DNA from: a virus
Direction: 5' to 3' (one strand)
DNA length: 27,913 bases
Virus genome (UHGV): UHGV-0785300
Shown here one piece after another: positions 1-27,697 of this stretch (the first letter of the stretch is position 1; each line of letters begins with the position of its first letter). A model generated the notes under the pieces. That model was not told the DNA's origin. It saw only the letters and a list, made by a program, of their open reading frames with translations, and did no database searches. The position numbers and the translations under genes are program-made.

Positions 1-183
1 AGCGAACCAGCATGGAAGTAATCAACGAAGTGGCCAAAGCGTCAATCCGGATTTGCTCCCGTTGAGAACAATCTTCAGGCGCGGGTTACACGCAGCCACT
101 TCAAACGCGCGGCGATAGATCATCAGCAGGTTGTTCTGGTCAAGCCTTTGACGCCCAGACGAGCATAGTCAGGGATCCAGGCG

Positions 184-411
184 ATGGATGTGCCAGGACT
201 GTTCACGAAGAAGAAATATCTGAAAGGTCTGGGTGGTAACAGCACTGAAGACTTCAAACGTATTCTAAACAACCTGGATGCGTATACTACGACGGTCACG
301 CTGGACGATGGCTACCAACAGTCACTGAAGAATGGCTTCGGTGATGAGGCTGCCGATTACCGTAAAACCTGGTTTAGCGATGTTTGCCTGTTTGAAACTG
401 AGGATGAATAA
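184..411 (+). CDS. hypothetical small protein (75 aa)
   Basis: ATG ORF ending 1 nt before the topoisomerase start; weak SD; no recognisable motif. Confidence 0.35.
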   Translation: MDVPGLFTKKKYLKGLGGNSTEDFKRILNNLDAYTTTVTLDDGYQQSLKNGFGDEAADYRKTWFSDVCLFETEDE

Positions 412-2112: not shown

Positions 2113-2388
2113 ATGATTCCTTGTATTTTCATTGTCCTGGGTGTGATATACTTCATCTGTATCGCATTAAGGGCGAAATCCAAGGTCTTGATGTGGATGT
2201 GGAACAACAATATTATTGAGCCTACGTTCACACCGAGCCTGCTGGTGAATGCATCTGATCCAGCATCACGTTGCCATCTGTTCCTGACCGACGGCAAAAT
2301 ACAATTCCTCGGCGACTGTTTCCATGATCTGAAGAACCAGACAGTGGATATGGTCGACATCTCTGAACCTGAAATTTGGATTGAATAG
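2113..2388 (+). CDS. hypothetical protein with hydrophobic N-terminus (91 aa)
   Basis: ATG ORF in operon context; N-terminal hydrophobic stretch IPCIFIVLGVIYFICIAL. Confidence 0.4.
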   Translation: MIPCIFIVLGVIYFICIALRAKSKVLMWMWNNNIIEPTFTPSLLVNASDPASRCHLFLTDGKIQFLGDCFHDLKNQTVDMVDISEPEIWIE

Positions 2389-2391
2389 ATT

Positions 2392-2802
2392 ATGAAATTA
2401 CTGGGATATTTTCGTGAACTCCCAACGGGCACTGAAGGCAAGTTGTTCTCACAGGTGAAAGGGGATGACATCGGCGATACGATGATTCCATTGTACACTC
2501 GTGAACTTCCTGTCGAAGGTGCCTGGGAGCGCCGTGTGGTCGCTGCCGCCAACAAATATGGTGATGTAATCGTCGTTGCTGACCGTCACCACAGCCGATT
2601 CATGAACAGCCAGCTCAAGATCCTGAAAGAAGCAGGCGTCATTAAATCCACCCATACCCGCGAACAGGGCTTCATCGACAACCAGGGCAACTTCCTCACT
2701 CGTGAAGAGGCGTGCATCGTAGCCCGTGAAGCTGGACAGATTAATCAGGTGCGCCTGAAGACAACCCCTTTCCGCGAACTCTTTTCCGAAGACCTCTATT
2801 GA
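2392..2802 (+). CDS. hypothetical protein (136 aa)
   Basis: ORF 4 nt after the previous stop; no confident motif. Confidence 0.4.
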   Translation: MKLLGYFRELPTGTEGKLFSQVKGDDIGDTMIPLYTRELPVEGAWERRVVAAANKYGDVIVVADRHHSRFMNSQLKILKEAGVIKSTHTREQGFIDNQGNFLTREEACIVAREAGQINQVRLKTTPFRELFSEDLY

Positions 2803-2809
2803 AGAAAAA

Positions 2810-2827
2810 GGCGGTATTATTACCGCC
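2810..2827. terminator. stem-loop GGCGGTA-TTAT-TACCGCC flanked by an A-run (5') and a weak T-rich tract (3')
   Basis: 7-bp perfect inverted repeat 8 nt after the stop at 2802; U-tract weak on the + strand, better on the - strand. Confidence 0.3.
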
Positions 2828-2852
2828 TCGACCTCTTGTTTGGTAACATCAA

Positions 2853-3095
2853 ATGAACCCAGAATTTGAAAATCTGTTCGAGCGATGCTTCGAACCAGGT
2901 TCTGTGTCCGGTTACATGGACCGCCTTTGTACTGCCATTGTAATACGCCTTGCTGCCAAGGGTATCGTTGTCAACACCATTATCCGCAATGGGAACAACT
3001 TTATCATGCAGATGACTGATTATCACCACCGCACAGGCATCATCCAGGTGTCATGTGTTGACAACAGCATTATTGAATGGAGACAGTACGCATGA
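2853..3095 (+). CDS. hypothetical protein (80 aa)
   Basis: ORF whose stop overlaps the next start (ATGA at 3092-3095). Confidence 0.35.
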   Translation: MNPEFENLFERCFEPGSVSGYMDRLCTAIVIRLAAKGIVVNTIIRNGNNFIMQMTDYHHRTGIIQVSCVDNSIIEWRQYA

Positions 3096-3709
3096 CAACC
3101 TATGTAATCAATGGCGGCGATTTACTGAAAGCCGCCTGTAGCTTCAATCTGATCGACATCTTTGCCCACGGTGCCAACTGTTGGTCTACCATGGGCGCTG
3201 GTATTGCCCTGCACATCGGTAACAACTTCCCAGCCCTGCGTGAAGTCGATGCTAACGACCCTCGTGGTCCAGAGCAACGCCTGGGTGGCATGTCCTATGC
3301 ATTTGACCACAGCACTGGTGTCTGGGGTGCGAACCTCTACACTCAGTTTTATCCAGGTCCGAATGCTCGCATGCCGTCTGTCATCAGTTCTGTTCAGACC
3401 CTGTTTGAGCAGGTGCATGAAATTGTGGAAGCAACTAAAGACGAAACTGTCTATGTCGGCCTGCCTGCTATCGGCTGTGGCATCGGCGGTCTGAATCTGT
3501 ATGACGTTGTCCGCCAGGTGGAAGCGCTGGCTGAAACCCTGTATGAAGACACTCGCTGCCGGGTTGTCCCCGTGTTCTACATCATGGAAGTAGACAAGTT
3601 TGCGGAAGACATGGAAAATCTGAACGCGCTGGACGATGATATCAACGTCGTCGATTCTGAAGAAGAAATTATCCGGGTGGAGGGGGTGAATAATGATATG
3701 CGCGTTTGA
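3092..3709 (+). CDS. macro-domain (ADP-ribose binding/hydrolase-like) protein
   Basis: YVINGGDLLKA...DIFAHGANCWSTMGAGIAL resembles the macro-domain NAAN..GGGV..AI phosphate-binding loop, and VYVGLPAIGCGIGGL resembles the second loop (FPAIStGvyG); start set at the ATG coupled to the upstream stop with a GGAGACAG SD. Confidence 0.6.
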   Translation: MTTYVINGGDLLKAACSFNLIDIFAHGANCWSTMGAGIALHIGNNFPALREVDANDPRGPEQRLGGMSYAFDHSTGVWGANLYTQFYPGPNARMPSVISSVQTLFEQVHEIVEATKDETVYVGLPAIGCGIGGLNLYDVVRQVEALAETLYEDTRCRVVPVFYIMEVDKFAEDMENLNALDDDINVVDSEEEIIRVEGVNNDMRV

Positions 3710-6542: not shown

Positions 6543-6857
6543 ATGACCCCATTAAAAGAAATGTATGAGCGCCTGGCTGAACTGCAGGCGAAGGAAAAGC
6601 GCTTCTCAGAAGAAGAGACAGAGCTGTCCGAGCTGAACACTTTGATCGCCACTCGCGAGAAGTACCTGCAGCGCTACATTAATCACCCGCCGCGCATGGT
6701 AGACCGCGTCAGCACTATCATGGACCTGGATGAAGTTACTCCTGGCAAAGAAATCATTGTCAGGGAAGTCCACCAGATGGTCGCCATGGGTCAGATCTTT
6801 GGTCGTGCAGACCAAGACGACATGATCTTCCTCCTTGAAAAGAAACTGGTGATGTGA
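6543..6857 (+). CDS. hypothetical protein (104 aa)
   Basis: AAGAGGAA SD; stop overlaps the next ATG (TGATG). Confidence 0.45.
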   Translation: MTPLKEMYERLAELQAKEKRFSEEETELSELNTLIATREKYLQRYINHPPRMVDRVSTIMDLDEVTPGKEIIVREVHQMVAMGQIFGRADQDDMIFLLEKKLVM

Positions 6858-7363
6858 TGGCTATCAAACCCCGTATGTTATTTGCGCATATGCGCTCGGC
6901 TCATGCATACGCTCTGTCCAGCTATGCCCAGCGCCTGAAGGTTGGCTGTGTTATCGTTGACCCACGTGTTGACCAACCCCTGTCTATCGGTTGGAACGGG
7001 ACTGCTCCTGGCGCTCCTAATGTCTGTGAGAAGGAAGTAGACGGTCAACTGGTATCGGTGGGTGTTATCCACGCCGAGGAGAATGCTCTGAGCAAACTCC
7101 CCCAGCACACCGAAGACTGTTGTGGTCTGGTGATGTTTGTCACTCATAGTCCATGCCCAGAGTGCACCCGTCGTATTATCGACAGTGGCAAGATCGCTAA
7201 AGTGTTCTATGACCGACCATATCGTATCATAGACGGCATTATTGAAATGCTGGCTGCTGGGATTGAAGTATATCGCATGGTCGATCAGATTGTTGTAGTC
7301 CAGCATTCTGTGAAGAACGGCGAACTGGTATCCACCCCTGTTTTAGTGAACCCTGACAAATAA
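6857..7363 (+). CDS. cd: dCMP deaminase (cytidine/deoxycytidylate deaminase zinc-binding family)
   Basis: Zinc-binding motifs VIHAEENAL (H-A-E) and SPCPECTRRI (PCxxC); start set at ATG 6857 (the track start at 6854 is GTG). Confidence 0.75.
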   Translation: MAIKPRMLFAHMRSAHAYALSSYAQRLKVGCVIVDPRVDQPLSIGWNGTAPGAPNVCEKEVDGQLVSVGVIHAEENALSKLPQHTEDCCGLVMFVTHSPCPECTRRIIDSGKIAKVFYDRPYRIIDGIIEMLAAGIEVYRMVDQIVVVQHSVKNGELVSTPVLVNPDK

Positions 7364-16369: not shown

Positions 16370-16441
16370 GGACTTCAATAGATTATTGGCGGGTGTGGGA
16401 TCTTGCTTGGCTGATAATGACCGCAAATGTTTCTGTATCCA

Positions 16442-16975
16442 TCATGAACCCTCCGCCCAGACAAAGCCGTATTTGTTCAGTAGATCCACGGTTTCACCAC
16501 GAGCGCGAGCCACGATAGATTCTACTGATTCTTCCACCTCGAGTGGTGGGCAACCAGCCTTTTCGTACGTGTTAAGCAAGAGAGCAAGTTCTTTTACGAA
16601 CTCTTCTTGTTCCTCTCCTCCAAAGAACCACATCCGCAGATCGTCGCGTTCCCCGTGCTTGTTCAGAGAAGCCATATTCACGTACACGTAATCGTTTTTC
16701 TGAACAACGTCATTTATCTCCGGCCAATGCAACCCAGTCATCGCATAATTGAAGAATTCCGAAGGGGTGACTTCATCCGACAAATAATACAAACGGAAGT
16801 CACCGCTGGGGCCATGTTTGCAAGTTCTATCCAGCATTATTTTGTGGATGTCAACACGGTCTCGCTTCAAGACTTCCCGTTTCTTCAGTCGACCTCTCAG
16901 CCAGGCACTGCCAATACACAAAAGAACGAAAGCAGTAGCACCAGTGAGTATGTTGAAAGAATCAATAATGTTCAT
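16442..16975 (-). CDS. membrane-anchored hypothetical protein
   Basis: Start set at the internal ATG (MNIIDSF..., GGGGA SD) because the first ATG lies inside a hairpin; N-terminal TM helix ILTGATAFVLLCIGSAW. Confidence 0.4.
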   Translation of the reverse strand: MNIIDSFNILTGATAFVLLCIGSAWLRGRLKKREVLKRDRVDIHKIMLDRTCKHGPSGDFRLYYLSDEVTPSEFFNYAMTGLHWPEINDVVQKNDYVYVNMASLNKHGERDDLRMWFFGGEEQEEFVKELALLLNTYEKAGCPPLEVEESVESIVARARGETVDLLNKYGFVWAEGS

Positions 16976-16992
16976 AAGATCCCCGAAGTGAT

Positions 16993-17012
16993 AGAGGGGC
17001 ATAAGCCCCTCT
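16993..17012 (-). promoter_or_regulatory. intercistronic GC-rich stem-loop (AGAGGGGC-N4-GCCCCUCU)
   Basis: Perfect 8-bp inverted repeat between the PspA-like stop and the next gene; no U-tract. Confidence 0.35.
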
Positions 17013-17016
17013 GATG

Positions 17017-17625
17017 TTATTTGCTCAGGCTGGCGAGGTAGTTGTCGGCTTCGATAGACGACGGGCTGTTGGCGGAGTAGCTCGAATCAGCGATTTCGGT
17101 TTCGCGCAGGATGGCATCGATATCGATGGTGGTCATACCAGCGGCATAATCGATATCTTCAGGGAGCACCAGACCCAGGTCGTTCGTCTCTTTCTGAACA
17201 CGAACCAGCTCGAGATTGGACTTGACTTCGTCCAGTTTGTCACCCAGCTGGATGATCGCACCGTTCAGTTTGTCGCTGCTTGCTTCGATGTCCTTCACCT
17301 GAGACAACAGGGCTTCACCGATACGGCGGCGATGCAGAATAATCAGGGCGTCGGCGCGGGTTGGTGTGACACCACGAGCGATGGCATCCTTCAGAACTTC
17401 TTCGCGCTTGGCGGCTTCACTCAGGTTCTGTTCTGCGGTCTTCTTCAGCTTGACGCCGTTGCGGACGTTGGTGACACGGGCTTCCTCCAGGCGACGGATT
17501 TCGTCAGACAGCTTGCGAGCAGCCAGGTTCAGGCGCTTTTCGGTGTCGGTCAGTTTATCCAGACTTGTGGTGACGTTGGCTTCAACAGTGGTGAAGATGC
17601 GTTTCAGTAAGTTTTTCAGTGACAT
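17017..17625 (-). CDS. PspA/IM30 (phage-shock protein A)-like coiled-coil protein
   Basis: N-terminal FTTVEANVTTSLDKLTDTEKRL resembles the PspA [21 protein letters not shown] motif; heptad-like charged helices throughout; about 200 aa. Confidence 0.45.
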   Translation of the reverse strand: MSLKNLLKRIFTTVEANVTTSLDKLTDTEKRLNLAARKLSDEIRRLEEARVTNVRNGVKLKKTAEQNLSEAAKREEVLKDAIARGVTPTRADALIILHRRRIGEALLSQVKDIEASSDKLNGAIIQLGDKLDEVKSNLELVRVQKETNDLGLVLPEDIDYAAGMTTIDIDAILRETEIADSSYSANSPSSIEADNYLASLSK

Positions 17626-22373: not shown

Positions 22374-23436
22374 GGTCCATTTGCTCCAGCATGTTAGCAG
22401 GCATAACAGTACCGTTAGAAACACCGAACATTTTCTTCACGTCATCGGCGAAGTTGACATTCTCCAGCAGCGGATACCAGAAATCATCACCCATCTGACG
22501 CTTCTGATATTTCTTTTCCTTCTCAGGATCGAAGCCGCCCTTGGCTGTACGCACATACCAGCCGGAAGACGGCATATCAACATAACCCAGAGCACGAGCG
22601 ATCTCAAGCAGGCCGCTCCAGCGATCAATACCACCGTTGTACAGTACCGTCACAGGGAGCTTGGCTTTCTCTTTGACATGGCGACCTTTCATGATGCTTA
22701 TGTTGAAGTTCCAGCCCAGCAGATCTTTGTCTTCCTTCACCTGAGAACGGGTGATAAACCAGATCAAGTTGGAGGATAAGAAGCCCTGCTTGCCGCCTTT
22801 GATGTTGGGCTCGGCATACTGGTTGCCGATCTCATCGTAATAGGAGTTGATCCAAACACACACGAGATTTTTGCTGTTGATTTCGGGAGTCATGACACGC
22901 CAGAAGCTGTTAAGGGCACGGGCGCGGGTCATGTCTTGAGTGTCGTTCCCTTTGATCGCATCTTCAACTTCCTTGGTGGAGGGAAGTTGGCTGATAGAGT
23001 CGATGAAGATTATAACATGGTCGCCTTTCTTGACTTCCTGTAGGATCTGCAGCAAGCGGATCTTGGTCTGTTCAACGTTGTCGATCGGTACGTACAGGAC
23101 GCGGTCCATGTCAATGCCCATAGAGGTCCAGTAATCGGCGTTGGCACCCTTTTCTGAGTCCGCAAAGACGCAGATAGCATCAGGGAACTTGTCCATGTAC
23201 GCCTTGACGTCCACCAGGCCGAACATCGTTTTGAAGGTACGGGAATCACCCACCATCATCTTGATACCGGAGATCAGGCCGCCGTCAATACGCCCAGACC
23301 ATGCGATGTCGATCAGGGGAATACCAGTAGAACAGATGATAGACGGTTCCAGAGCGTCTGATTGGGACAGCACTGAAGCCTGGTCATCGTGTTTCTTAGC
23401 AACCTTCAGCATGCGGTCCATTAATGAACTGGCCAT
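22351..23436 (-). CDS. uvsX: UvsX recombinase (RecA/Rad51 family)
   Basis: GIKMMVGDSRTFKTMFGLVDVKAYMDKFPDAICVFADSEKG closely matches the T4 UvsX Walker-A region (LLILAGPSKSFKSNFGL...YPDAVCLFYDSEFG); AAAGAGGAAG SD. Confidence 0.85.
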   Translation of the reverse strand: MASSLMDRMLKVAKKHDDQASVLSQSDALEPSIICSTGIPLIDIAWSGRIDGGLISGIKMMVGDSRTFKTMFGLVDVKAYMDKFPDAICVFADSEKGANADYWTSMGIDMDRVLYVPIDNVEQTKIRLLQILQEVKKGDHVIIFIDSISQLPSTKEVEDAIKGNDTQDMTRARALNSFWRVMTPEINSKNLVCVWINSYYDEIGNQYAEPNIKGGKQGFLSSNLIWFITRSQVKEDKDLLGWNFNISIMKGRHVKEKAKLPVTVLYNGGIDRWSGLLEIARALGYVDMPSSGWYVRTAKGGFDPEKEKKYQKRQMGDDFWYPLLENVNFADDVKKMFGVSNGTVMPANMLEQMDHVINTSE

Positions 23437-23963
23437 TTCACTTCCTCTTTGTTGTTAATCGTCGTTAGTAAGTCTACACCCATAACCTTCTGGGACAAAA
23501 TGTTAACCGCCTCTTGGATGCTCTTCAGGGACATTGTCTCAACAAGTGACGATGCGTCATTATGCCGGTCGGTTAGGTACATATTGCGCAGATTGTTGTA
23601 GTTCGTGCGGTTGATGCACGCAGTGTTCAGTGCTATATTCAGGATATACATCATCTGTTCAATGGTTATATCCTTTGGCATAGCGTGGATGTAATAGATC
23701 GAGCCTTCAAAATAGACGTCTACCAGTTCATCTGGTATCTTGGTGCCACCACCGGCATACTCTTCGATCATCCTGAACAGAGACTCTGGTTGCTCGCTGG
23801 CGATCTTATGCGTAACAGTCGCCGAAAGACCGTCGCCCGGTTTAACAGGCCTGGTGTATTCGGTAAAGAATACATTATGTCCGCCGCCGATGATGTGCTC
23901 GGCGAATTTGGAGGATGCCTGAGCAGCGTTCTCCGCATGGTATGAAACGACGACTGTAAACAT
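23421..23963 (-). CDS. hypothetical protein (180 aa) within the nucleotide-metabolism operon
   Basis: ATG coupled to the upstream stop; overlaps the uvsX start by 16 nt; no confident motif. Confidence 0.45.
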   Translation of the reverse strand: MFTVVVSYHAENAAQASSKFAEHIIGGGHNVFFTEYTRPVKPGDGLSATVTHKIASEQPESLFRMIEEYAGGGTKIPDELVDVYFEGSIYYIHAMPKDITIEQMMYILNIALNTACINRTNYNNLRNMYLTDRHNDASSLVETMSLKSIQEAVNILSQKVMGVDLLTTINNKEEVKWPVH

Positions 23964-24517
23964 TAGAACTCCAGGGTCAGAGGGGTTTCTGCGGACTTGT
24001 CGTAATCCGCGCCACCAGAAGCACGTAGACGATTGCGATCGTTCTTGCGTTTGTGCGCCAGTATGTAAGTCTCAATGTCGATCTCCATATAAGAACACGC
24101 AGACGACAGGAAGAACATGAGAGTCTCAACGCAAGGATCGTTCATGAATTGCCCAAGGCGGTACGTAACATTGCGATGCCCTGCAACACCCAAAGCACAC
24201 GGGGTGAATTCGCGATTACTAAGGACTTCAAATTCTTCTTCGATCTCACCTTTGGTGCGGTCCACAAGGATGAAGCACAACATGAAGTGTACCACGTCCA
24301 CCAGTTCATAAACTGCGTTCGTATGGTCAAACCCGATGTCGTTGCCATAGACCTTCCAGTCACGGGTGGTTTCATCAAGGAACTCTGCCCACTCACGATA
24401 GATAGAGTTGATGACTGCATTCTGACTCCATACATTCTTCCACTCTTCCCCAAAGTAGGCCACGTTGGTGGCCTTTTGGAGTTCGAGCAGGCTTTGGATA
24501 TGCCCTGCTGTGATCAT
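23963..24517 (-). CDS. putative all-alpha dNTP pyrophosphatase (T4 gp56 dCTPase/dUTPase-like)
   Basis: Acidic helical motifs (EEWKNVW..., EWAEFLDET..., ELVDVVHFMLCFIL) resemble the gp56/dimeric-dUTPase pattern as remembered; ATGA coupling to the dNMP kinase gene. Confidence 0.5.
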   Translation of the reverse strand: MITAGHIQSLLELQKATNVAYFGEEWKNVWSQNAVINSIYREWAEFLDETTRDWKVYGNDIGFDHTNAVYELVDVVHFMLCFILVDRTKGEIEEEFEVLSNREFTPCALGVAGHRNVTYRLGQFMNDPCVETLMFFLSSACSYMEIDIETYILAHKRKNDRNRLRASGGADYDKSAETPLTLEF

Positions 24518-25083
24518 TTACGTTCTCCGTAGAATTTAACGAACGGTGCCCAACCATCAAATGGATTGAGGAATTCGTAGTCCACTTTCATTTGGTCAAT
24601 GAAAGCCTCTATATCGTCCTCTATGATACCAGCACGGTCGGCCTTTGAAATACGGGTGATAGGACATTTCGTACTCAGCGCCCATTCATATTCCTGAGGG
24701 GTACGCAGATCGCTCACGATATAATGGACGTGGGGGTTCTGCTCTACCAAAGGAAGCTGGAAGCGCTTGAAGAATGCCAGGAACAGATCAGGCTGTACGT
24801 AACGCAAGCCCGTATCGCTGCCTAGATGAAGCCAGATCTGCCGTGGAGTTAAGCCCTTGGGGTTATCAGGGTGCACGTAAGGAACGTCCTTCACGGCATC
24901 CTCTACCTCCGCTGGCAGCCATGGATAGATGAAGTTGGCAACCCGGCGCAGTTCATCTGAGAACGAAAGGCGCTGGATGTCCATATCACCCTGTAGTTGG
25001 TGATAGCTGATGAGGGACTCCAAACAGAAGTCCTTGCCGGAACGCTTGCGCCCCGTAAAGAATTCAAGATTTGGGTACATCAT
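24514..25083 (-). CDS. deoxynucleoside monophosphate kinase (T4 gp1-like)
   Basis: P-loop FFTGRKRSGKDF matches T4 gp1 FLSGVKRSGKDT; YIVSDLRTPQEYE resembles gp1 YIVPDTRQDHEMD. Confidence 0.7.
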   Translation of the reverse strand: MMYPNLEFFTGRKRSGKDFCLESLISYHQLQGDMDIQRLSFSDELRRVANFIYPWLPAEVEDAVKDVPYVHPDNPKGLTPRQIWLHLGSDTGLRYVQPDLFLAFFKRFQLPLVEQNPHVHYIVSDLRTPQEYEWALSTKCPITRISKADRAGIIEDDIEAFIDQMKVDYEFLNPFDGWAPFVKFYGERK

Positions 25084-26126
25084 ACTACACCTTCCAGGAA
25101 CTTAGGATCAACGATCTTGCGGTCAACCGGAGAATGGGTGAGCGCGGTGTTCAATCCATGATCCTGAATCAGGTCCAGGTTAATGAGCTTGTTATTCAAT
25201 TTGCAGTGCAGGCAGTATGCCATCTGCACAATCAGACCGCGATCCGCATCATACTCCTTCAGGAAGGCAACAACAGTTTCCCAAGGACTACCGAAGTCAC
25301 AATGAACAAGCACGCCAGTGAACAGATCGCGGATATGGTTCTGGTTGGTCACGTTCGTGAAGTGGATCATGGAGTTGATGAACCCAGCTTCTACTTTGGT
25401 GTCCTTCGTGATCTTGCCCAGCTGCTTCTGGCTGACTTCATTGTTGTAGTAATGAAGATTGTTAGAGAATAGCTTGTACTGACCGACATCAACATCCAAC
25501 ACCCGAGCAATCACTTCCTGAAGAATAGAGAACTCAATGAAGTTGATTGAACTCATACCCCACAGAACATCCTGTGAGCGATTGATAACCGTCAGGTTCA
25601 GACGACCTTCAACGATGGCGAACAACAGAGCCAGGTTACACACCATGTCCTTAGTCTTCGCTTCGCCGCTCTCGCTGAACTTCGCCAGACCAGCATCCGA
25701 ATCCAGAGCCGGATCATAGATGGTGAGGTACGCCTGGCGAGTGTTTGGATTCTTGCGCAGGCGGTTGATGACGCTATCCAGCTGGCCATGGGCGTACAGA
25801 CGCGGACCATAAGCGGCTCGCCATGTGTGGCCGTTGTCGGAAAAGTTGGCGGCGCGGGGCAACACGCGGGACAGGAAGCGAACGTCATCGCGCCCGGACA
25901 GAACCCAGAAGGTCTCGCCGATGGCAGCGATAGCCGATGAGTTACGACCTTCAACGGATAGCCAGCGGTCACGGATGTCGGCGACGGTTATGGTCACGCC
26001 ATCAAGGAAGCGGGTGCTATCAGTATTGATTTCAGCATTACCAGGATCAGATTCGATCCCGAATTCACGGATAGCCAAGACAGCCTGTTTCAGCATGTCA
26101 TTGTTGTTTATTGCTTTGATTTCCAT
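25080..26126 (-). CDS. thymidylate-synthase-fold pyrimidine hydroxymethylase (dUMP/dCMP hydroxymethylase-like) with C-terminal extension
   Basis: NPNTRQAYLTIY matches the T4 gp42 and TS motif NPDSRRGIMIY; catalytic-Cys context DMVCNLALLF; NRSQDVLWG matches RSNDVVFG/RSCDVFLG; SNNLHYY matches the TS C-terminal motif; 348 aa versus about 250 for gp42. Confidence 0.7.
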   Translation of the reverse strand: MEIKAINNNDMLKQAVLAIREFGIESDPGNAEINTDSTRFLDGVTITVADIRDRWLSVEGRNSSAIAAIGETFWVLSGRDDVRFLSRVLPRAANFSDNGHTWRAAYGPRLYAHGQLDSVINRLRKNPNTRQAYLTIYDPALDSDAGLAKFSESGEAKTKDMVCNLALLFAIVEGRLNLTVINRSQDVLWGMSSINFIEFSILQEVIARVLDVDVGQYKLFSNNLHYYNNEVSQKQLGKITKDTKVEAGFINSMIHFTNVTNQNHIRDLFTGVLVHCDFGSPWETVVAFLKEYDADRGLIVQMAYCLHCKLNNKLINLDLIQDHGLNTALTHSPVDRKIVDPKFLEGVV

Positions 26127-26785
26127 CAGATACTCCCAAAATCACGACAGAGGAATGCCATCACAGCCTGGTCTACTGTTAGGCCGTGAGACTTCATCAT
26201 ACCCGCAGCCACCGTAGGGAACAAGTCTTTATGTCGTTGACAATGGTCATGAACTCTCTCCCACTTCTCAACCACCAGACTTTCATTGAAGTCCACACCG
26301 CCGTTACGTGATTTAACACGGGCGATACACGTTTCAAGAGGAGTGTCCATAAAGAGCACAACCAATTCACGTGGTGGGCGTGTCAGACGGGGGATCCAAG
26401 AACTCAATAATGTGGATGGAATGATACCTTCGAAAATCACATCATATTTCAAGTATTCTGGTTGGTCAGCAATAGACAACGCGAACAACATCTGCTCAGT
26501 GTCCTTCAGGGAATCAACCCCCTTGGACTTCGACTTGTCATATTTACCGATACAGACCACGTTGAACGAAGGACAGACAGTCAGCATGACCTTGCCGTTA
26601 TGGGTCACGACATACGCCTGAGGATCCCTCTCCGCCAGCTGAGACGGCACAGTGGATTTACCGCTACCATTGGAGCCTTTGACGTAGTAGATTTGCCCTC
26701 GTGCTGGGTAGATCCCCTTTACGACGGGTGGTTTAAAGAATGTGTGGACGGGGCGCTTCATCAGCCCCTTCAGGGAGTAGGACAT
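26126..26785 (-). CDS. P-loop nucleotide/polynucleotide kinase-like protein (candidate hydroxymethyl-pyrimidine kinase)
   Basis: Walker A VKGSNGSGKST near the N-terminus; 219 aa; ATGA coupled to the hydroxymethylase gene; GGAGCAG SD. Confidence 0.5.
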   Translation of the reverse strand: MSYSLKGLMKRPVHTFFKPPVVKGIYPARGQIYYVKGSNGSGKSTVPSQLAERDPQAYVVTHNGKVMLTVCPSFNVVCIGKYDKSKSKGVDSLKDTEQMLFALSIADQPEYLKYDVIFEGIIPSTLLSSWIPRLTRPPRELVVLFMDTPLETCIARVKSRNGGVDFNESLVVEKWERVHDHCQRHKDLFPTVAAGMMKSHGLTVDQAVMAFLCRDFGSI

Positions 26786-26815
26786 AAACTGCTCCGATAA
26801 ACAAAAGGAGCTGCT

Positions 26816-26842
26816 ATTATAGCAACCCCTTCATCTATTGAA
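26816..26842 (-). promoter_or_regulatory. candidate promoter: TTCAATAG box, 13 nt, TATAAT
   Basis: Minus strand reads TTCAATAGatgaaggggttgcTATAAT about 30 nt upstream of the kinase ATG at 26785. Confidence 0.35.
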
Positions 26843-26860
26843 CAGTTTCTGAACTTAAAT

Positions 26861-27697
26861 TTACACAGCTTTCGCTTCAGCCAGAGCCTGTGGAAGCCAT
26901 TCATTGATCGCCTTAACCAGAGACTCAGCATCAGACTCTTTGATCTTCTGACGTTTGGTGAAGGACTTGCCGTTCACGTACAGACTGAAGCCCCAGCCAC
27001 CGGAAACGATAGGCGCAACGTCGACATACGTATTGGTGCGGGCGTGAAGGTTTTCAGGGTTAGCCAGTTCGGTGACCGGGAACTGGAACCAACGCATGTC
27101 TGGGTTCACGTAGCTCAGGAACACACCGGGGACAACACCAGCTTCAATCGCCGCCAAGACCGGACCGTGATTAGAAGCGCGAGCCACGTCAACCATTTCC
27201 TCACGTTTGGTGTGACGGCGTTTACGCTCTACCAGCGCCGCCTGTGGGGTCAGGGTCTTACCCTTCGATGCTTCTTTCAACATAGAAGACGCCAAGGAGC
27301 CGATTTTCGCGTCGGACGGCTGATTGCCTTCTTCCAGCGCCGCGTTGACTGCATCTTCAACCGCGTCTACCGGGGCGTCGGACACTGGGGCTTCACATGC
27401 ATCGGCAGAGATCGGTGCTTCAGCATCAACGGTTTCAGCGACTTTCAGGGATACTTCAGCTTGGGCTTGCTCTTGGGCTTGCGCCAGAGCCTGCTGAGTT
27501 TCTTCCTTCTCTTCGGCGCTCAGACCTTCAATCAGTTCGAAGCCGTTGGCAGCCTGAAGAACACCTTCAACCATACGGCGCAGGGTAACGTTTCCGATGA
27601 TCAGACCTGCTTCTTTGATTTCAGCCTGGATAGCCGCAACGTCTTTGCCTTCAATTTCAATTTTGGTTCCAGAATCCACATGAAGAATATATGACAT
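26861..27697 (-). CDS. hypothetical two-domain protein with acidic Ala/Glu/Gln-rich linker (278 aa)
   Basis: Clear ATG ORF; low-complexity central region (EEKEETQQALAQAQEQAQAE...DAEAPISADACEAPVSDAPVDAVEDAV) between two globular-looking segments. Confidence 0.45.
   Translation of the reverse strand: MSYILHVDSGTKIEIEGKDVAAIQAEIKEAGLIIGNVTLRRMVEGVLQAANGFELIEGLSAEEKEETQQALAQAQEQAQAEVSLKVAETVDAEAPISADACEAPVSDAPVDAVEDAVNAALEEGNQPSDAKIGSLASSMLKEASKGKTLTPQAALVERKRRHTKREEMVDVARASNHGPVLAAIEAGVVPGVFLSYVNPDMRWFQFPVTELANPENLHARTNTYVDVAPIVSGGWGFSLYVNGKSFTKRQKIKESDAESLVKAINEWLPQALAEAKAV

What the first reader, a model, noticed from the sequence alone, without database searches (positions are those of the whole stretch)
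26126..26785. Second P-loop kinase beside the hydroxymethylase, in addition to the gp1-type dNMP kinase
A canonical dNMP kinase is already present at 24514..25083, so a further Walker-A kinase (GSNGSGKST, 219 aa, no phosphatase motif) tightly coupled to the hydroxymethylase suggests a dedicated role. Two candidates are phosphorylation of the modified dNMP, or phosphorylation of the hydroxymethyl group on DNA to activate it for substitution.
Basis: inference. Interest (0 to 1): 0.7.

Follow-up and report, generated by a model that had tools for sequence, protein, structure and literature searches.

The report
Known phage 5-hydroxymethyluracil DNA kinase

Summary
Window 26126..26785 (-) is a real 219-aa ORF with Walker A GSNGSGKST, and its stop overlaps the start of a thymidylate-synthase-like hydroxymethylase by 1 nt. 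It is not new. It matches Pfam PF18748 (5-hmdU DNA kinase, type 1) end to end (E 7e-108, 359 bits against a cut-off of 27). It is 87.7% identical over its full length, in the same gene order, to Salmonella phage ViI gp67. In vitro, gp67 transfers one phosphate from ATP to the 5-hydroxymethyl group of 5-hmdU inside DNA, giving 5-PmdU (Lee 2018 PNAS; Lee 2021 NAR). The window is an Agtrevirus (Ackermannviridae) segment, 96-98% identical to phage AV101. AV101 carries orthologues of every other ViI pathway gene: the type-2 kinase, the serine:DNA transferase, the PLP decarboxylase and aGPT-Pplase1. The first candidate, a kinase for hm-dUMP, better fits the neighbouring dNMP kinase. All family signature residues are kept and dN/dS is 0.06-0.10. 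No solved structure of the family was found in the PDB. Side findings are widespread mis-annotation as 'terminase small subunit' and a conserved terminator-like hairpin upstream. Novelty: already known. Interest: low.

The parts
26126..26785 (-). 5-hmdU DNA kinase, type 1 (5-HMUDK / HMUD1), 219 aa; orthologue of ViI gp67
   Evidence: ORF. PF18748 E 7.4e-108, aa 14-208 matching profile positions 1-195 of 196. 87.7% identity over 219 aa to ViI gp67. dN/dS 0.055-0.10.
26651..26677 (-). Walker A / P-loop GSNGSGKST (aa 37-45); binds the ATP phosphates
   Evidence: Read from the sequence. G37, G40, G42 and K43 are at least 97% conserved across 135 family sequences.
26513..26548 (-). Family-specific G80-K-Y82 ... 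G89-V-D91 motif (aa 80-91). Inferred hmU-binding loop, with D91 as candidate general base.
   Evidence: G80 99%, Y82 100%, G89 100% and D91 99% conserved across 135 sequences. The assigned role is inference by analogy with the catalytic Asp of small P-loop kinases.
26426..26434 (-). F118-E119-G120, a Walker-B-like acidic residue at the end of strand 115-119
   Evidence: E119 98% and G120 96% conserved. Strand E115-119 in the AF2 model.
26306..26320 (-). Lid arginines R156-V-K-S-R160
   Evidence: R156 93% and R160 100% conserved. They lie in helix 150-160 of the model.
26792..26795 (-). GGAG ribosome-binding site of the kinase gene
   Evidence: Read from the sequence. Klebsiella phage Menlow annotates an RBS at the equivalent position.
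26786..26848 (-). Long hairpin in the 75-nt spacer upstream of the kinase. The inner stem 26804..26832 is terminator-like; the lower stem pairs with the GGAG site.
   Evidence: MFE -33.6 kcal/mol, z -4.84, 0 of 200 shuffles as stable. Terminator-like hit. A hairpin at the same position in six Ackermannviridae genera, annotated as a terminator in Menlow.
25080..26126 (-). dUMP hydroxymethylase (thymidylate synthase superfamily), 348 aa; makes 5-hm-dUMP
   Evidence: PF00303 E 1.5e-15. phrog_3676 E 6e-181. 74.8% identity to ViI thyA-like. Cys163 and Asn195 align with the TS catalytic Cys and the uracil-reading Asn, where CMP hydroxymethylase MilA has Asp next door.
24514..25083 (-). dNMP kinase (P-loop GRKRSGKD), 189 aa; inferred hm-dUMP to hm-dUDP step
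   Evidence: phrog_139 E 7.5e-47. 91% identity to ViI dnk. Weak P-loop similarity to T4 gp1. The role is taken from the pathway description in Lee 2021.
23963..24517 (-). All-alpha dUTPase_2 / MazG-like NTP pyrophosphohydrolase, 184 aa; inferred dUTP/dTTP clearance
   Evidence: PF08761 E 4e-9. phrog_173 E 4e-40. Specificity was not tested.
6854..7363 (+). dCMP deaminase, supplies dUMP to the hydroxymethylase
   Evidence: PF00383 E 4e-16. Annotated as Cd in AV101 and as dCMP deaminase in ViI.

Best explanation
The ORF encodes a type-1 5-hydroxymethyl-2'-deoxyuridine DNA kinase (5-HMUDK, Pfam PF18748), the Agtrevirus orthologue of Salmonella phage ViI gp67. Before replication, the phage's dCMP deaminase, dUMP hydroxymethylase and dNMP kinase (all in this window), together with host NDP kinase, make 5-hm-dUTP, and the phage polymerase incorporates it in place of T. 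After replication, this kinase binds double-stranded phage DNA and transfers the gamma-phosphate of ATP to the 5-CH2OH group of a subset of hmU bases. The product is 5-phosphomethyl-dU (5-PmdU), in which phosphate is a good leaving group. An aGPT-Pplase2 enzyme encoded elsewhere in the genome then displaces the phosphate with the side-chain oxygen of L-serine to give O-serinyl-T. A PLP-dependent decarboxylase removes CO2 to give 5-(2-aminoethoxy)methyl-dU (5-NeOmdU), which blocks many restriction endonucleases. What is shown here: family membership, orthology, retained signature residues, purifying selection, operon coupling, and the rest of the pathway in the nearest relative. What is shown in the literature for the orthologue: the DNA-level monophosphorylation and the downstream steps. 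What is inferred: that this particular protein and phage do the same, and the roles assigned to K43/S44 (ATP and Mg), D91 (general base), E119 (Mg/water) and R156/R160 (transition-state lid).
For: PF18748 matched end to end, E 7.4e-108, 358.9 bits against a cut-off of 27; validated ViI gp67 scores 386 bits and purified M6 gp54 scores 65 bits on the same model. 87.7% identity over 219 of 219 aa to ViI gp67, against only 23% to the type-2 paralogue gp243. Same gene order and the same 1-nt kinase/hydroxymethylase overlap as in ViI. None of the 27 substitutions relative to gp67 falls on a conserved family position. All signature residues (at least 90% conserved across 135 sequences) are present, as they are in M6 gp54. 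dN/dS 0.055-0.10. The window is 96-98% identical to phage AV101, which has orthologues of gp243 (84.5%), gp247 serine:DNA transferase (89.5%), gp226 PLP decarboxylase (91.6%) and gp160 (81.2%). Biochemistry from Lee 2021 NAR, PMC8989533: ViI gp67, gp243, M6 gp54, PhiW-14 gp37 and SP10 gp186 all give the 418-u 5-PmdUMP nucleotide from 5-hmdU DNA; 32P is transferred to DNA; only ADP and the monophosphate are formed; and 5-PmdU is competent for aGPT-Pplase2. 5-NeOmdU replaces about 40% of T in ViI and CBA120, and the genes are reported as conserved across Ackermannviridae. The AF2 model is confident (pLDDT 86.7) with a small P-loop kinase fold whose nearest solved neighbours include several nucleic-acid kinases.
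Against: No experiment exists on this protein or on any Agtrevirus DNA; the published chemistry is for Kuttervirus phages. The transferase, decarboxylase and second kinase lie outside the 28-kb window, so their presence in this exact genome is inferred from a 96-98% identical relative. Whether gp67 was tested on free hm-dUMP is not stated in the text I read, so a second substrate is not excluded. In ViI it is not known which of the two kinases is necessary in vivo. The residue-level mechanism is inference, because no family structure is in the PDB and the model coordinates could not be inspected.
Confidence: 0.93

Rival explanations
1. It is a mononucleotide kinase dedicated to the modified precursor (hm-dUMP to hm-dUDP).
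For: It is translationally coupled to the enzymes of the pre-replicative nucleotide pathway. It has the generic NMP-kinase fold, with UMP-CMP, guanylate and adenylate kinases among the fold neighbours. Some records label it thymidylate or cytidylate kinase.
Against: The 88%-identical ViI gp67 puts the phosphate on the base of hmU within DNA, not on a 5' phosphate. There is no significant match to Thymidylate_kin, dNK or the adenylate/cytidylate kinase Pfam models. A separate dNMP kinase lies two genes away, and the literature assigns the hm-dUMP step to such a kinase. There is no similarity to T4 gp1.
Confidence: 0.03
2. It is a terminase small subunit, as RefSeq and PHROG-based annotations call it in ViI, Det7, SKML-39, Ag3, Menlow and many other phages.
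For: The best PHROG hit is phrog_800, labelled 'terminase small subunit' (E 1.6e-68). The label recurs in many records.
Against: The protein is a Walker A kinase with a confident P-loop kinase fold and a curated Pfam assignment. ViI and AV101 each have a genuine T4 gp16-like small terminase next to the large terminase. The gene sits among nucleotide-metabolism genes, not packaging genes. The match covers only positions 4-220 of a 511-position PHROG profile. Biochemistry shows kinase activity.
Confidence: 0.005
3. It is a polynucleotide 5'-hydroxyl kinase (end-healing or repair enzyme) acting on DNA or RNA termini rather than on bases.
Confidence: 0.02

Closest known systems
Salmonella phage ViI gp67 (YP_004327432), 5-hmdU DNA kinase, Pfam PF18748 HMUDK_HMUD1
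   Same: 87.7% identity over the full length, the same length (219 vs 220 aa), the same position directly upstream of the dUMP hydroxymethylase with a 1-nt overlap, and the same downstream genes (dnk, dUTPase-like, ACT, uvsX). All family signature residues are shared.
   Different: 27 conservative or peripheral substitutions and one residue shorter at the C-terminus. The host genus and phage genus differ (Agtrevirus vs Kuttervirus). No functional difference is indicated.
Pseudomonas phage M6 gp54 (the purified, best-characterised 5-HMUDK)
   Same: Same Pfam family (65 bits). Same Walker A, G-x-Y, G-x-D, E-G, R156/R160 and K174 signature. Same chemistry, 5-hmdU-DNA to 5-PmdU.
   Different: Only about 30% identity over the core. 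It lacks the roughly 30-residue N-terminal extension and the Lys-rich KSKSK loop. It feeds a different downstream pathway (glycine transfer, radical-SAM isomerase, giving 5-NedU) and sits inside a compact modification gene cluster rather than next to the hydroxymethylase.
ViI gp243 / AV101 orthologue, 5-hmdU DNA kinase 2 (Pfam PF18747 HMUD2)
   Same: Same reaction product in vitro. P-loop kinase sharing most signature positions. Present in the same genomes.
   Different: A separate Pfam family, 23% identity (E 0.004), 304 aa, located beside the aGPT-Pplase2 transferase gene rather than beside the hydroxymethylase. Why both exist is unknown.
T4 beta-glucosyltransferase (functional and positional analogue)
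   Same: A post-replicative enzyme that derivatises the 5-hydroxymethyl group of a pyrimidine already in phage DNA. It is encoded next to the hydroxymethylase (gene 42) in the same 42 ... uvsX-40-41 backbone.
   Different: An unrelated fold and different chemistry: glucosyl transfer from UDP-glucose to hmC as the final modification, not phosphorylation of hmU as an activating step.
Small P-loop kinases with solved structures (9drz, C. thermocellum PNK 4gp6, Atu3015 1zp6, gluconate kinase 1knq, T4 PNK 1ly1)
   Different: 12-25% identity and TM-score only 0.44-0.52. The family-specific beta-hairpin and G-x-Y/G-x-D insert (aa 58-95) and the N-terminal extension have no counterpart. No family member is in the PDB by sequence.

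Membership tests
5-hmdU DNA kinase type 1 (Pfam PF18748, HMUDK_HMUD1) | Full-length match to the curated family model above the gathering score | tested here: met
   358.9 bits against a cut-off of 27, E 7.4e-108, profile positions 1-195 of 196.
5-hmdU DNA kinase type 1 (Pfam PF18748, HMUDK_HMUD1) | Walker A plus the family signature (G-x-Y, G-x-D, E-G, lid R...R, K174) | tested here: met
   All are present. Each is at least 90% conserved across 135 family sequences that include validated ViI gp67 and M6 gp54.
5-hmdU DNA kinase type 1 (Pfam PF18748, HMUDK_HMUD1) | Orthology to an enzyme with demonstrated activity | tested here: met
   87.7% identity over the full length, with conserved flanking gene order, to ViI gp67. 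gp67 activity is reported in Lee 2021.
5-hmdU DNA kinase type 1 (Pfam PF18748, HMUDK_HMUD1) | Genomic association with a dUMP hydroxymethylase | tested here: met
   1-nt overlap with the TS-like ORF, which carries the catalytic Cys163 and the uracil-type Asn195. Lee 2018 notes the same co-association.
5-hmdU DNA kinase type 1 (Pfam PF18748, HMUDK_HMUD1) | Co-occurrence in the genome with an aGPT-Pplase transferase that uses 5-PmdU | tested here: inconclusive
   Absent from the 28-kb window. Present (89.5% and 81.2% identity to ViI gp247 and gp160) in AV101, which is 96-98% identical to the window. The window's own complete genome is not available.
5-hmdU DNA kinase type 1 (Pfam PF18748, HMUDK_HMUD1) | ATP-dependent phosphorylation of the 5-CH2OH group of hmU in DNA | not testable with these tools
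   Needs an enzyme assay with LC-MS. Shown only for homologues.
Polynucleotide kinase / PNK-phosphatase | Significant match to PNK-type kinase models and (for bifunctional PNKP) a DxDxT phosphatase domain | tested here: not met
Thymidylate / NMP kinases (Pfam Thymidylate_kin, ADK, Cytidylate_kin, Guanylate_kin) | Match to the family model with an NMP-binding region | tested here: not met
   No such Pfam or NCBIfam hit at E below 0.1. phrog_761 'thymidylate kinase' scores E 1.4e-6 against 1.6e-68 for the family's own PHROG.
Terminase small subunit | Adjacent to the large terminase; DNA-binding and oligomerisation domains; no kinase P-loop | tested here: not met
   A genuine gp16-like TerS lies elsewhere in ViI and AV101. 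This protein has a P-loop kinase fold.
T4 gp1-type dNMP kinase (applies to the neighbouring ORF 24514..25083, not to the finding) | Detectable homology to T4 gp1 | tested here: inconclusive
   Only the P-loop segment matches (E 0.003), plus a faint collinear segment. No PDB or T4-like tblastn hits. phrog_139 label.

The most novel reading that the evidence does not exclude
The type-1 kinase (gp67-like, translationally coupled to the pre-replicative nucleotide enzymes) and the type-2 kinase (gp243-like, next to the serine transferase) may not be redundant. The type-1 enzyme might select a different set of hmU sites, or act at a different time such as at or just behind the replication fork. Together the two would then set which roughly 40% of thymidines become hypermodified. 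Nothing here tests this; it is simply not excluded. Both enzymes are active in vitro, and which is needed in vivo is unreported.
Probability: 0.2. Interest if true: 0.4.

Novelty: already known. Interest (0 to 1): 0.1.

Why it matters
As a discovery it matters little. The family was predicted in 2013 and named and reconstituted in 2018-2021, and it is still being used and extended in 2026 work. This protein is a close orthologue of one of the tested enzymes. The practical value is in annotation. The gene is labelled 'hypothetical protein', 'terminase small subunit', 'thymidylate kinase', 'cytidylate kinase', 'baseplate hub' or 'T4 gp57-like' across hundreds of Ackermannviridae records, and two records truncate it past its P-loop. 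Recognising it correctly implies that Agtrevirus phages such as AV101, which are discussed as therapeutic candidates, probably carry 5-NeOmdU-type hypermodified DNA rather than plain hmdU. That affects restriction resistance, sequencing and cloning. No member of the family was found in the PDB searches run here, by sequence or by fold.

Full report
OBSERVATION. Window 26126..26785 on the minus strand is an ATG-to-TGA ORF of 219 codons. Its product carries GSNGSGKST at residues 37-45, which is window 26651..26677. A GGAG ribosome-binding site lies 6 nt upstream of the ATG. The TGA shares its last base with the ATG of the next ORF, 25080..26126 (-), a 348-aa protein. There is no DxDxT phosphatase motif, and the protein is a single domain. 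The chosen start is also the right one: two GenBank records (phages ZQ1 and A221) annotate a 174-aa version that begins at the GTG for Val46, and this removes the Walker A motif.

WHAT THE WINDOW IS. The 3.5 kb around the finding is 98.9% identical to Escherichia phage AV101 (Ackermannviridae, Aglimvirinae; the published Agtrevirus phage). It is 90-97% identical to other Agtrevirus and Limestonevirus phages. The whole window aligns to AV101 29220..55539 at 96-98% identity. Downstream of the kinase, on the same strand, five gene junctions overlap: kinase/hydroxymethylase by 1 nt, hydroxymethylase/dNMP kinase by 4 nt, dNMP kinase/dUTPase_2-like by 4 nt, dUTPase-like/ACT-domain protein by 1 nt, and ACT/UvsX by 16 nt. 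The kinase is thus the first cistron of a translationally coupled block.

WHAT THE PROTEIN IS. Pfam gives one strong assignment: PF18748, HMUDK_HMUD1, '5-hmdU DNA kinase'. The match has E 7.4e-108 and 358.9 bits against a gathering score of 27, and covers profile positions 1-195 of 196. Every other Pfam match (AAA_33, ABC_tran, Zeta_toxin) is below its cut-off and covers essentially the P-loop. All 27 homologues returned by the 5.8-billion-protein search carry PF18748. An exhaustive search of 1.84 billion cluster representatives finds 381 clusters at E up to 1e-3 and 82 at E up to 1e-10, some as 488-625-aa fusions.

The decisive comparison is with Salmonella phage ViI. I fetched the ViI genome. 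ViI gp67 (YP_004327432, Vi01_061c) lies directly upstream of the thyA-like gene with the same 1-nt overlap, followed by dnk, a dUTPase-like gene, an unnamed ORF and uvsX, exactly as in the window. The window protein is 87.7% identical to gp67 over 219 of 219 residues (E 8e-152). It is only 23% identical (E 0.004) to the second ViI kinase, gp243. Pfam places gp243 in a different family, PF18747 HMUD2.

WHAT IS KNOWN ABOUT THAT FAMILY. Lee et al. 2018 (PMC5889632) named the enzyme 5-HMUDK, following a prediction by Aravind and co-workers. They noted its association with dUMP hydroxymethylase and found 5-(2-aminoethoxy)methyl-dU (5-NeOmdU) in ViI DNA. They also reconstituted its synthesis from 5-hmdU DNA using lysates that expressed gp67, gp160, gp226, gp243 and gp247.

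Lee et al. 2021 (PMC8989533) purified M6 gp54. They showed ATP-dependent conversion of about 23% of the hmdU in SP8 DNA to a 418-u nucleotide, 5-PmdUMP, with ADP as the only other major product. 32P was transferred to the DNA, and an internal NcoI site became protected. The same product was obtained with ViI gp67, ViI gp243, PhiW-14 gp37 and SP10 gp186. Only the monophosphate was seen, and it was competent for the next enzyme. ViI gp247 (aGPT-Pplase2) transfers L-serine to give O-serinyl-T, and the PLP enzyme gp226 decarboxylates this to 5-NeOmdU.

A 2024 review states that 5-NeOmdU replaces about 40% of T in Vi01 and CBA120, and that the genes are conserved throughout Ackermannviridae. A 2026 paper still uses the same scheme for a new diaminopropane-modified thymine. 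By contrast, the AV101 paper speaks only of hydroxymethyluracil and never mentions a kinase.

REST OF THE PATHWAY. tblastn of the ViI pathway proteins against the window finds only gp67, the hydroxymethylase and dnk. Against the complete AV101 genome it finds all of them: gp243 at 84.5%, gp247 at 89.5%, gp226 at 91.6% and gp160 at 81.2% identity. The window itself holds the pre-replicative module that the 2021 paper describes. That module comprises a dCMP deaminase at 6854..7363 (+), the hydroxymethylase, a dNMP kinase and a dUTPase_2/MazG-like pyrophosphohydrolase.

The hydroxymethylase matches PF00303 and phrog_3676. Its best solved relatives are CMP hydroxymethylase MilA (E 8e-18) and thymidylate synthases. 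In those alignments its Cys163 aligns with the catalytic Cys, and its Asn195 aligns with the Asn that reads uracil in thymidylate synthase. MilA has an Asp one position before, at the window's Ile194. This fits a dUMP substrate.

MECHANISM AND RESIDUES. An alignment of 135 family sequences (cluster representatives plus ViI gp67, ViI gp243 and M6 gp54) shows a compact signature. It comprises G37, G40, G42 and K43 (Walker A); G80-x-Y82; G89-x-D91; E119-G120; R156 and R160; and K174, each at least 90% conserved (a smaller alignment). The window protein and M6 gp54 carry all of them. None of the 27 differences from gp67 touches them. The gene is under strong purifying selection, with dN/dS of 0.055 against ViI, 0.10 against Det7 and 0.064 against Ds23CZ.

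An AlphaFold2 model from a 14-sequence alignment is confident (mean pLDDT 86.7, pTM 0.85). It shows a P-loop strand-helix, a family-specific beta-hairpin region (residues 58-79) leading into the G-x-Y/G-x-D loop, the 115-119 strand that ends in E119, and a 150-160 helix that carries the two arginines.

By analogy with other small P-loop kinases, I infer four roles. K43 and S44 hold the ATP phosphates and Mg2+. D91 deprotonates the hydroxymethyl oxygen. E119 organises the metal. R156 and R160 act as a lid that stabilises the transferred phosphate. These roles are inference only; the model coordinates could not be inspected.

THE NEIGHBOURING KINASE. ORF 24514..25083 matches phrog_139 'deoxynucleoside monophosphate kinase' (E 7.5e-47) and is 91% identical to ViI dnk. 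Its link to T4 gp1 is thin. The two share a G-x-KRSGKD P-loop (pairwise E 0.003) and a faint collinear YIV-D-R segment. There are no PDB or T4-like tblastn hits. 'dNMP kinase' is reasonable; 'canonical gp1-type' is not shown.

A PARALLEL WITH T4. In T4 the gene order is 42 (dCMP hydroxymethylase), beta-glucosyltransferase, segA, uvsX, 40, 41. The window has kinase, hydroxymethylase, dNMP kinase, dUTPase-like, ACT, uvsX, a small ORF and a gp41-like helicase. In both phages, the enzyme that derivatises the hydroxymethyl group on DNA is encoded beside the hydroxymethylase, in the same replication and recombination backbone.

SIDE OBSERVATIONS. First, the annotation of this gene is chaotic. Its own PHROG (phrog_800) is labelled 'terminase small subunit', and RefSeq propagates that label to ViI, Det7, SKML-39, Ag3, MK-13, Menlow and others, even though a genuine gp16-like small terminase sits next to the large terminase.

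Second, the 75-nt spacer upstream of the kinase folds into a long hairpin with MFE -33.6 kcal/mol and z -4.84; none of 200 shuffles folds as well. Its inner stem is terminator-like, and its lower stem pairs with the kinase's GGAG site. A hairpin occupies the same position in Kuttervirus, Taipeivirus (annotated there as a terminator), Limestonevirus, Miltonvirus and a Vibrio Ackermannviridae phage. In the last two the stems are entirely different and are followed by U-runs. Formal covariation is weak because the alignable sequences are too similar.

VERDICT. The gene is an ordinary, close orthologue of an experimentally characterised enzyme, so it is already known and of low interest. The only open questions are general to the family: the lack of any solved structure, what determines which hmU sites are phosphorylated, and why Ackermannviridae keep two divergent kinases.

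Noticed in passing
window 26126..26785 and its orthologues in public records: The gene's annotation is systematically wrong or inconsistent. Its PHROG (phrog_800) is labelled 'terminase small subunit', and RefSeq carries that label for ViI, Det7, SKML-39, Ag3, MK-13, P46FS4, Menlow and others. Other records call it thymidylate kinase, cytidylate kinase, baseplate hub or 'T4 gp57-like'. AV101 calls it hypothetical.
   Followed up: yes
window 26648..26650 (GTG for Val46): Phages ZQ1 and A221 annotate a 174-aa product that starts at this internal GTG, immediately after GSNGSGKST, so the deposited proteins lack the Walker A motif.
   Followed up: yes
window 26786..26848 (-), inner stem 26804..26832: A long hairpin lies between the 278-aa ORF and the kinase (MFE -33.6 kcal/mol, z -4.84). 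It is terminator-like, and its lower stem pairs with the kinase's GGAG site. A hairpin sits at this position in six Ackermannviridae genera, with unrelated stem sequences in Serratia phage 2050H1 and a Vibrio phage. Menlow annotates it as a terminator. Covariation evidence is weak.
   Followed up: partly
window 26816..26821 (-), loop of that hairpin: The hairpin apex reads GCTATAATAGC, which contains TATAAT. The same hexamer sits at the apex of the otherwise different hairpin of Serratia phage 2050H1 (GCUAUAAUGUUAGC). This could be a -10 element embedded in the terminator, for the downstream nucleotide-metabolism operon. The promoter scan did not call it.
   Followed up: no
window 23421..23963 (-): A 180-aa protein matches PF24021 'Phage ACT-like domain' (E 3e-78) and phrog_3839 (unknown function). 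It is translationally coupled between the dUTPase-like gene and uvsX. ACT domains usually bind small-molecule effectors, so it may regulate the nucleotide enzymes. Its function is uncharacterised.
   Followed up: no
window 16420..17625: About 1.2 kb is absent from AV101, where the flanks are contiguous. It holds two minus-strand ORFs: 16442..17002 (186 aa, no Pfam hit) and 17017..17625 (202 aa, PspA/IM30 family, E 4e-10). ViI has two ORFs of similar size at the equivalent place; homology was not tested.
   Followed up: partly
window 1..409: There is an odd junction relative to AV101. Window 3..207 matches AV101 27642..27435 in inverted orientation, while 203..409 matches AV101 28568..28774, both inside the topoisomerase II large-subunit gene. 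This could be a contig-end fold-back artefact or a real rearrangement. The window also lacks the AV101 ORF 28776..29222 that separates the two topoisomerase genes there.
   Followed up: no
L016 (T4 24400..26219) compared with window 25080..26785: T4 encodes beta-glucosyltransferase next to dCMP hydroxymethylase (gene 42) in the same 42 ... uvsX-40-41 backbone in which this phage encodes the hmU DNA kinase next to its hydroxymethylase. In both, the DNA-level hydroxymethyl-modifying enzyme sits beside the hydroxymethylase.
   Followed up: partly
P0025 (379 aa) and representatives P0035, P0041, P0053, P0058, P0159: Some family members are tandem duplications with two P-loops (P0025). Others are 488-625-aa fusions with the kinase domain at either end, in line with the fusions to PLP enzymes and aGPT-Pplase reported by Lee 2021.
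   Followed up: no
AV101 (L006) 2267..3493: The AV101 orthologue of the ViI PLP decarboxylase gp226 aligns from 2306 to 3487. The record annotates only 2591..3493, plus an opposite-strand ORF at 2267..2560, so the decarboxylase is probably annotated with a truncated N-terminus.
   Followed up: no
L013 (Dickeya phage Ds23CZ) 401..1123: In this Limestonevirus record the kinase CDS runs 723 nt with a different C-terminal tail (…GHILQSK) and no longer overlaps the hydroxymethylase start, which lies 16 nt further on. This is probably a frameshift or sequencing difference near the 3' end.
   Followed up: no
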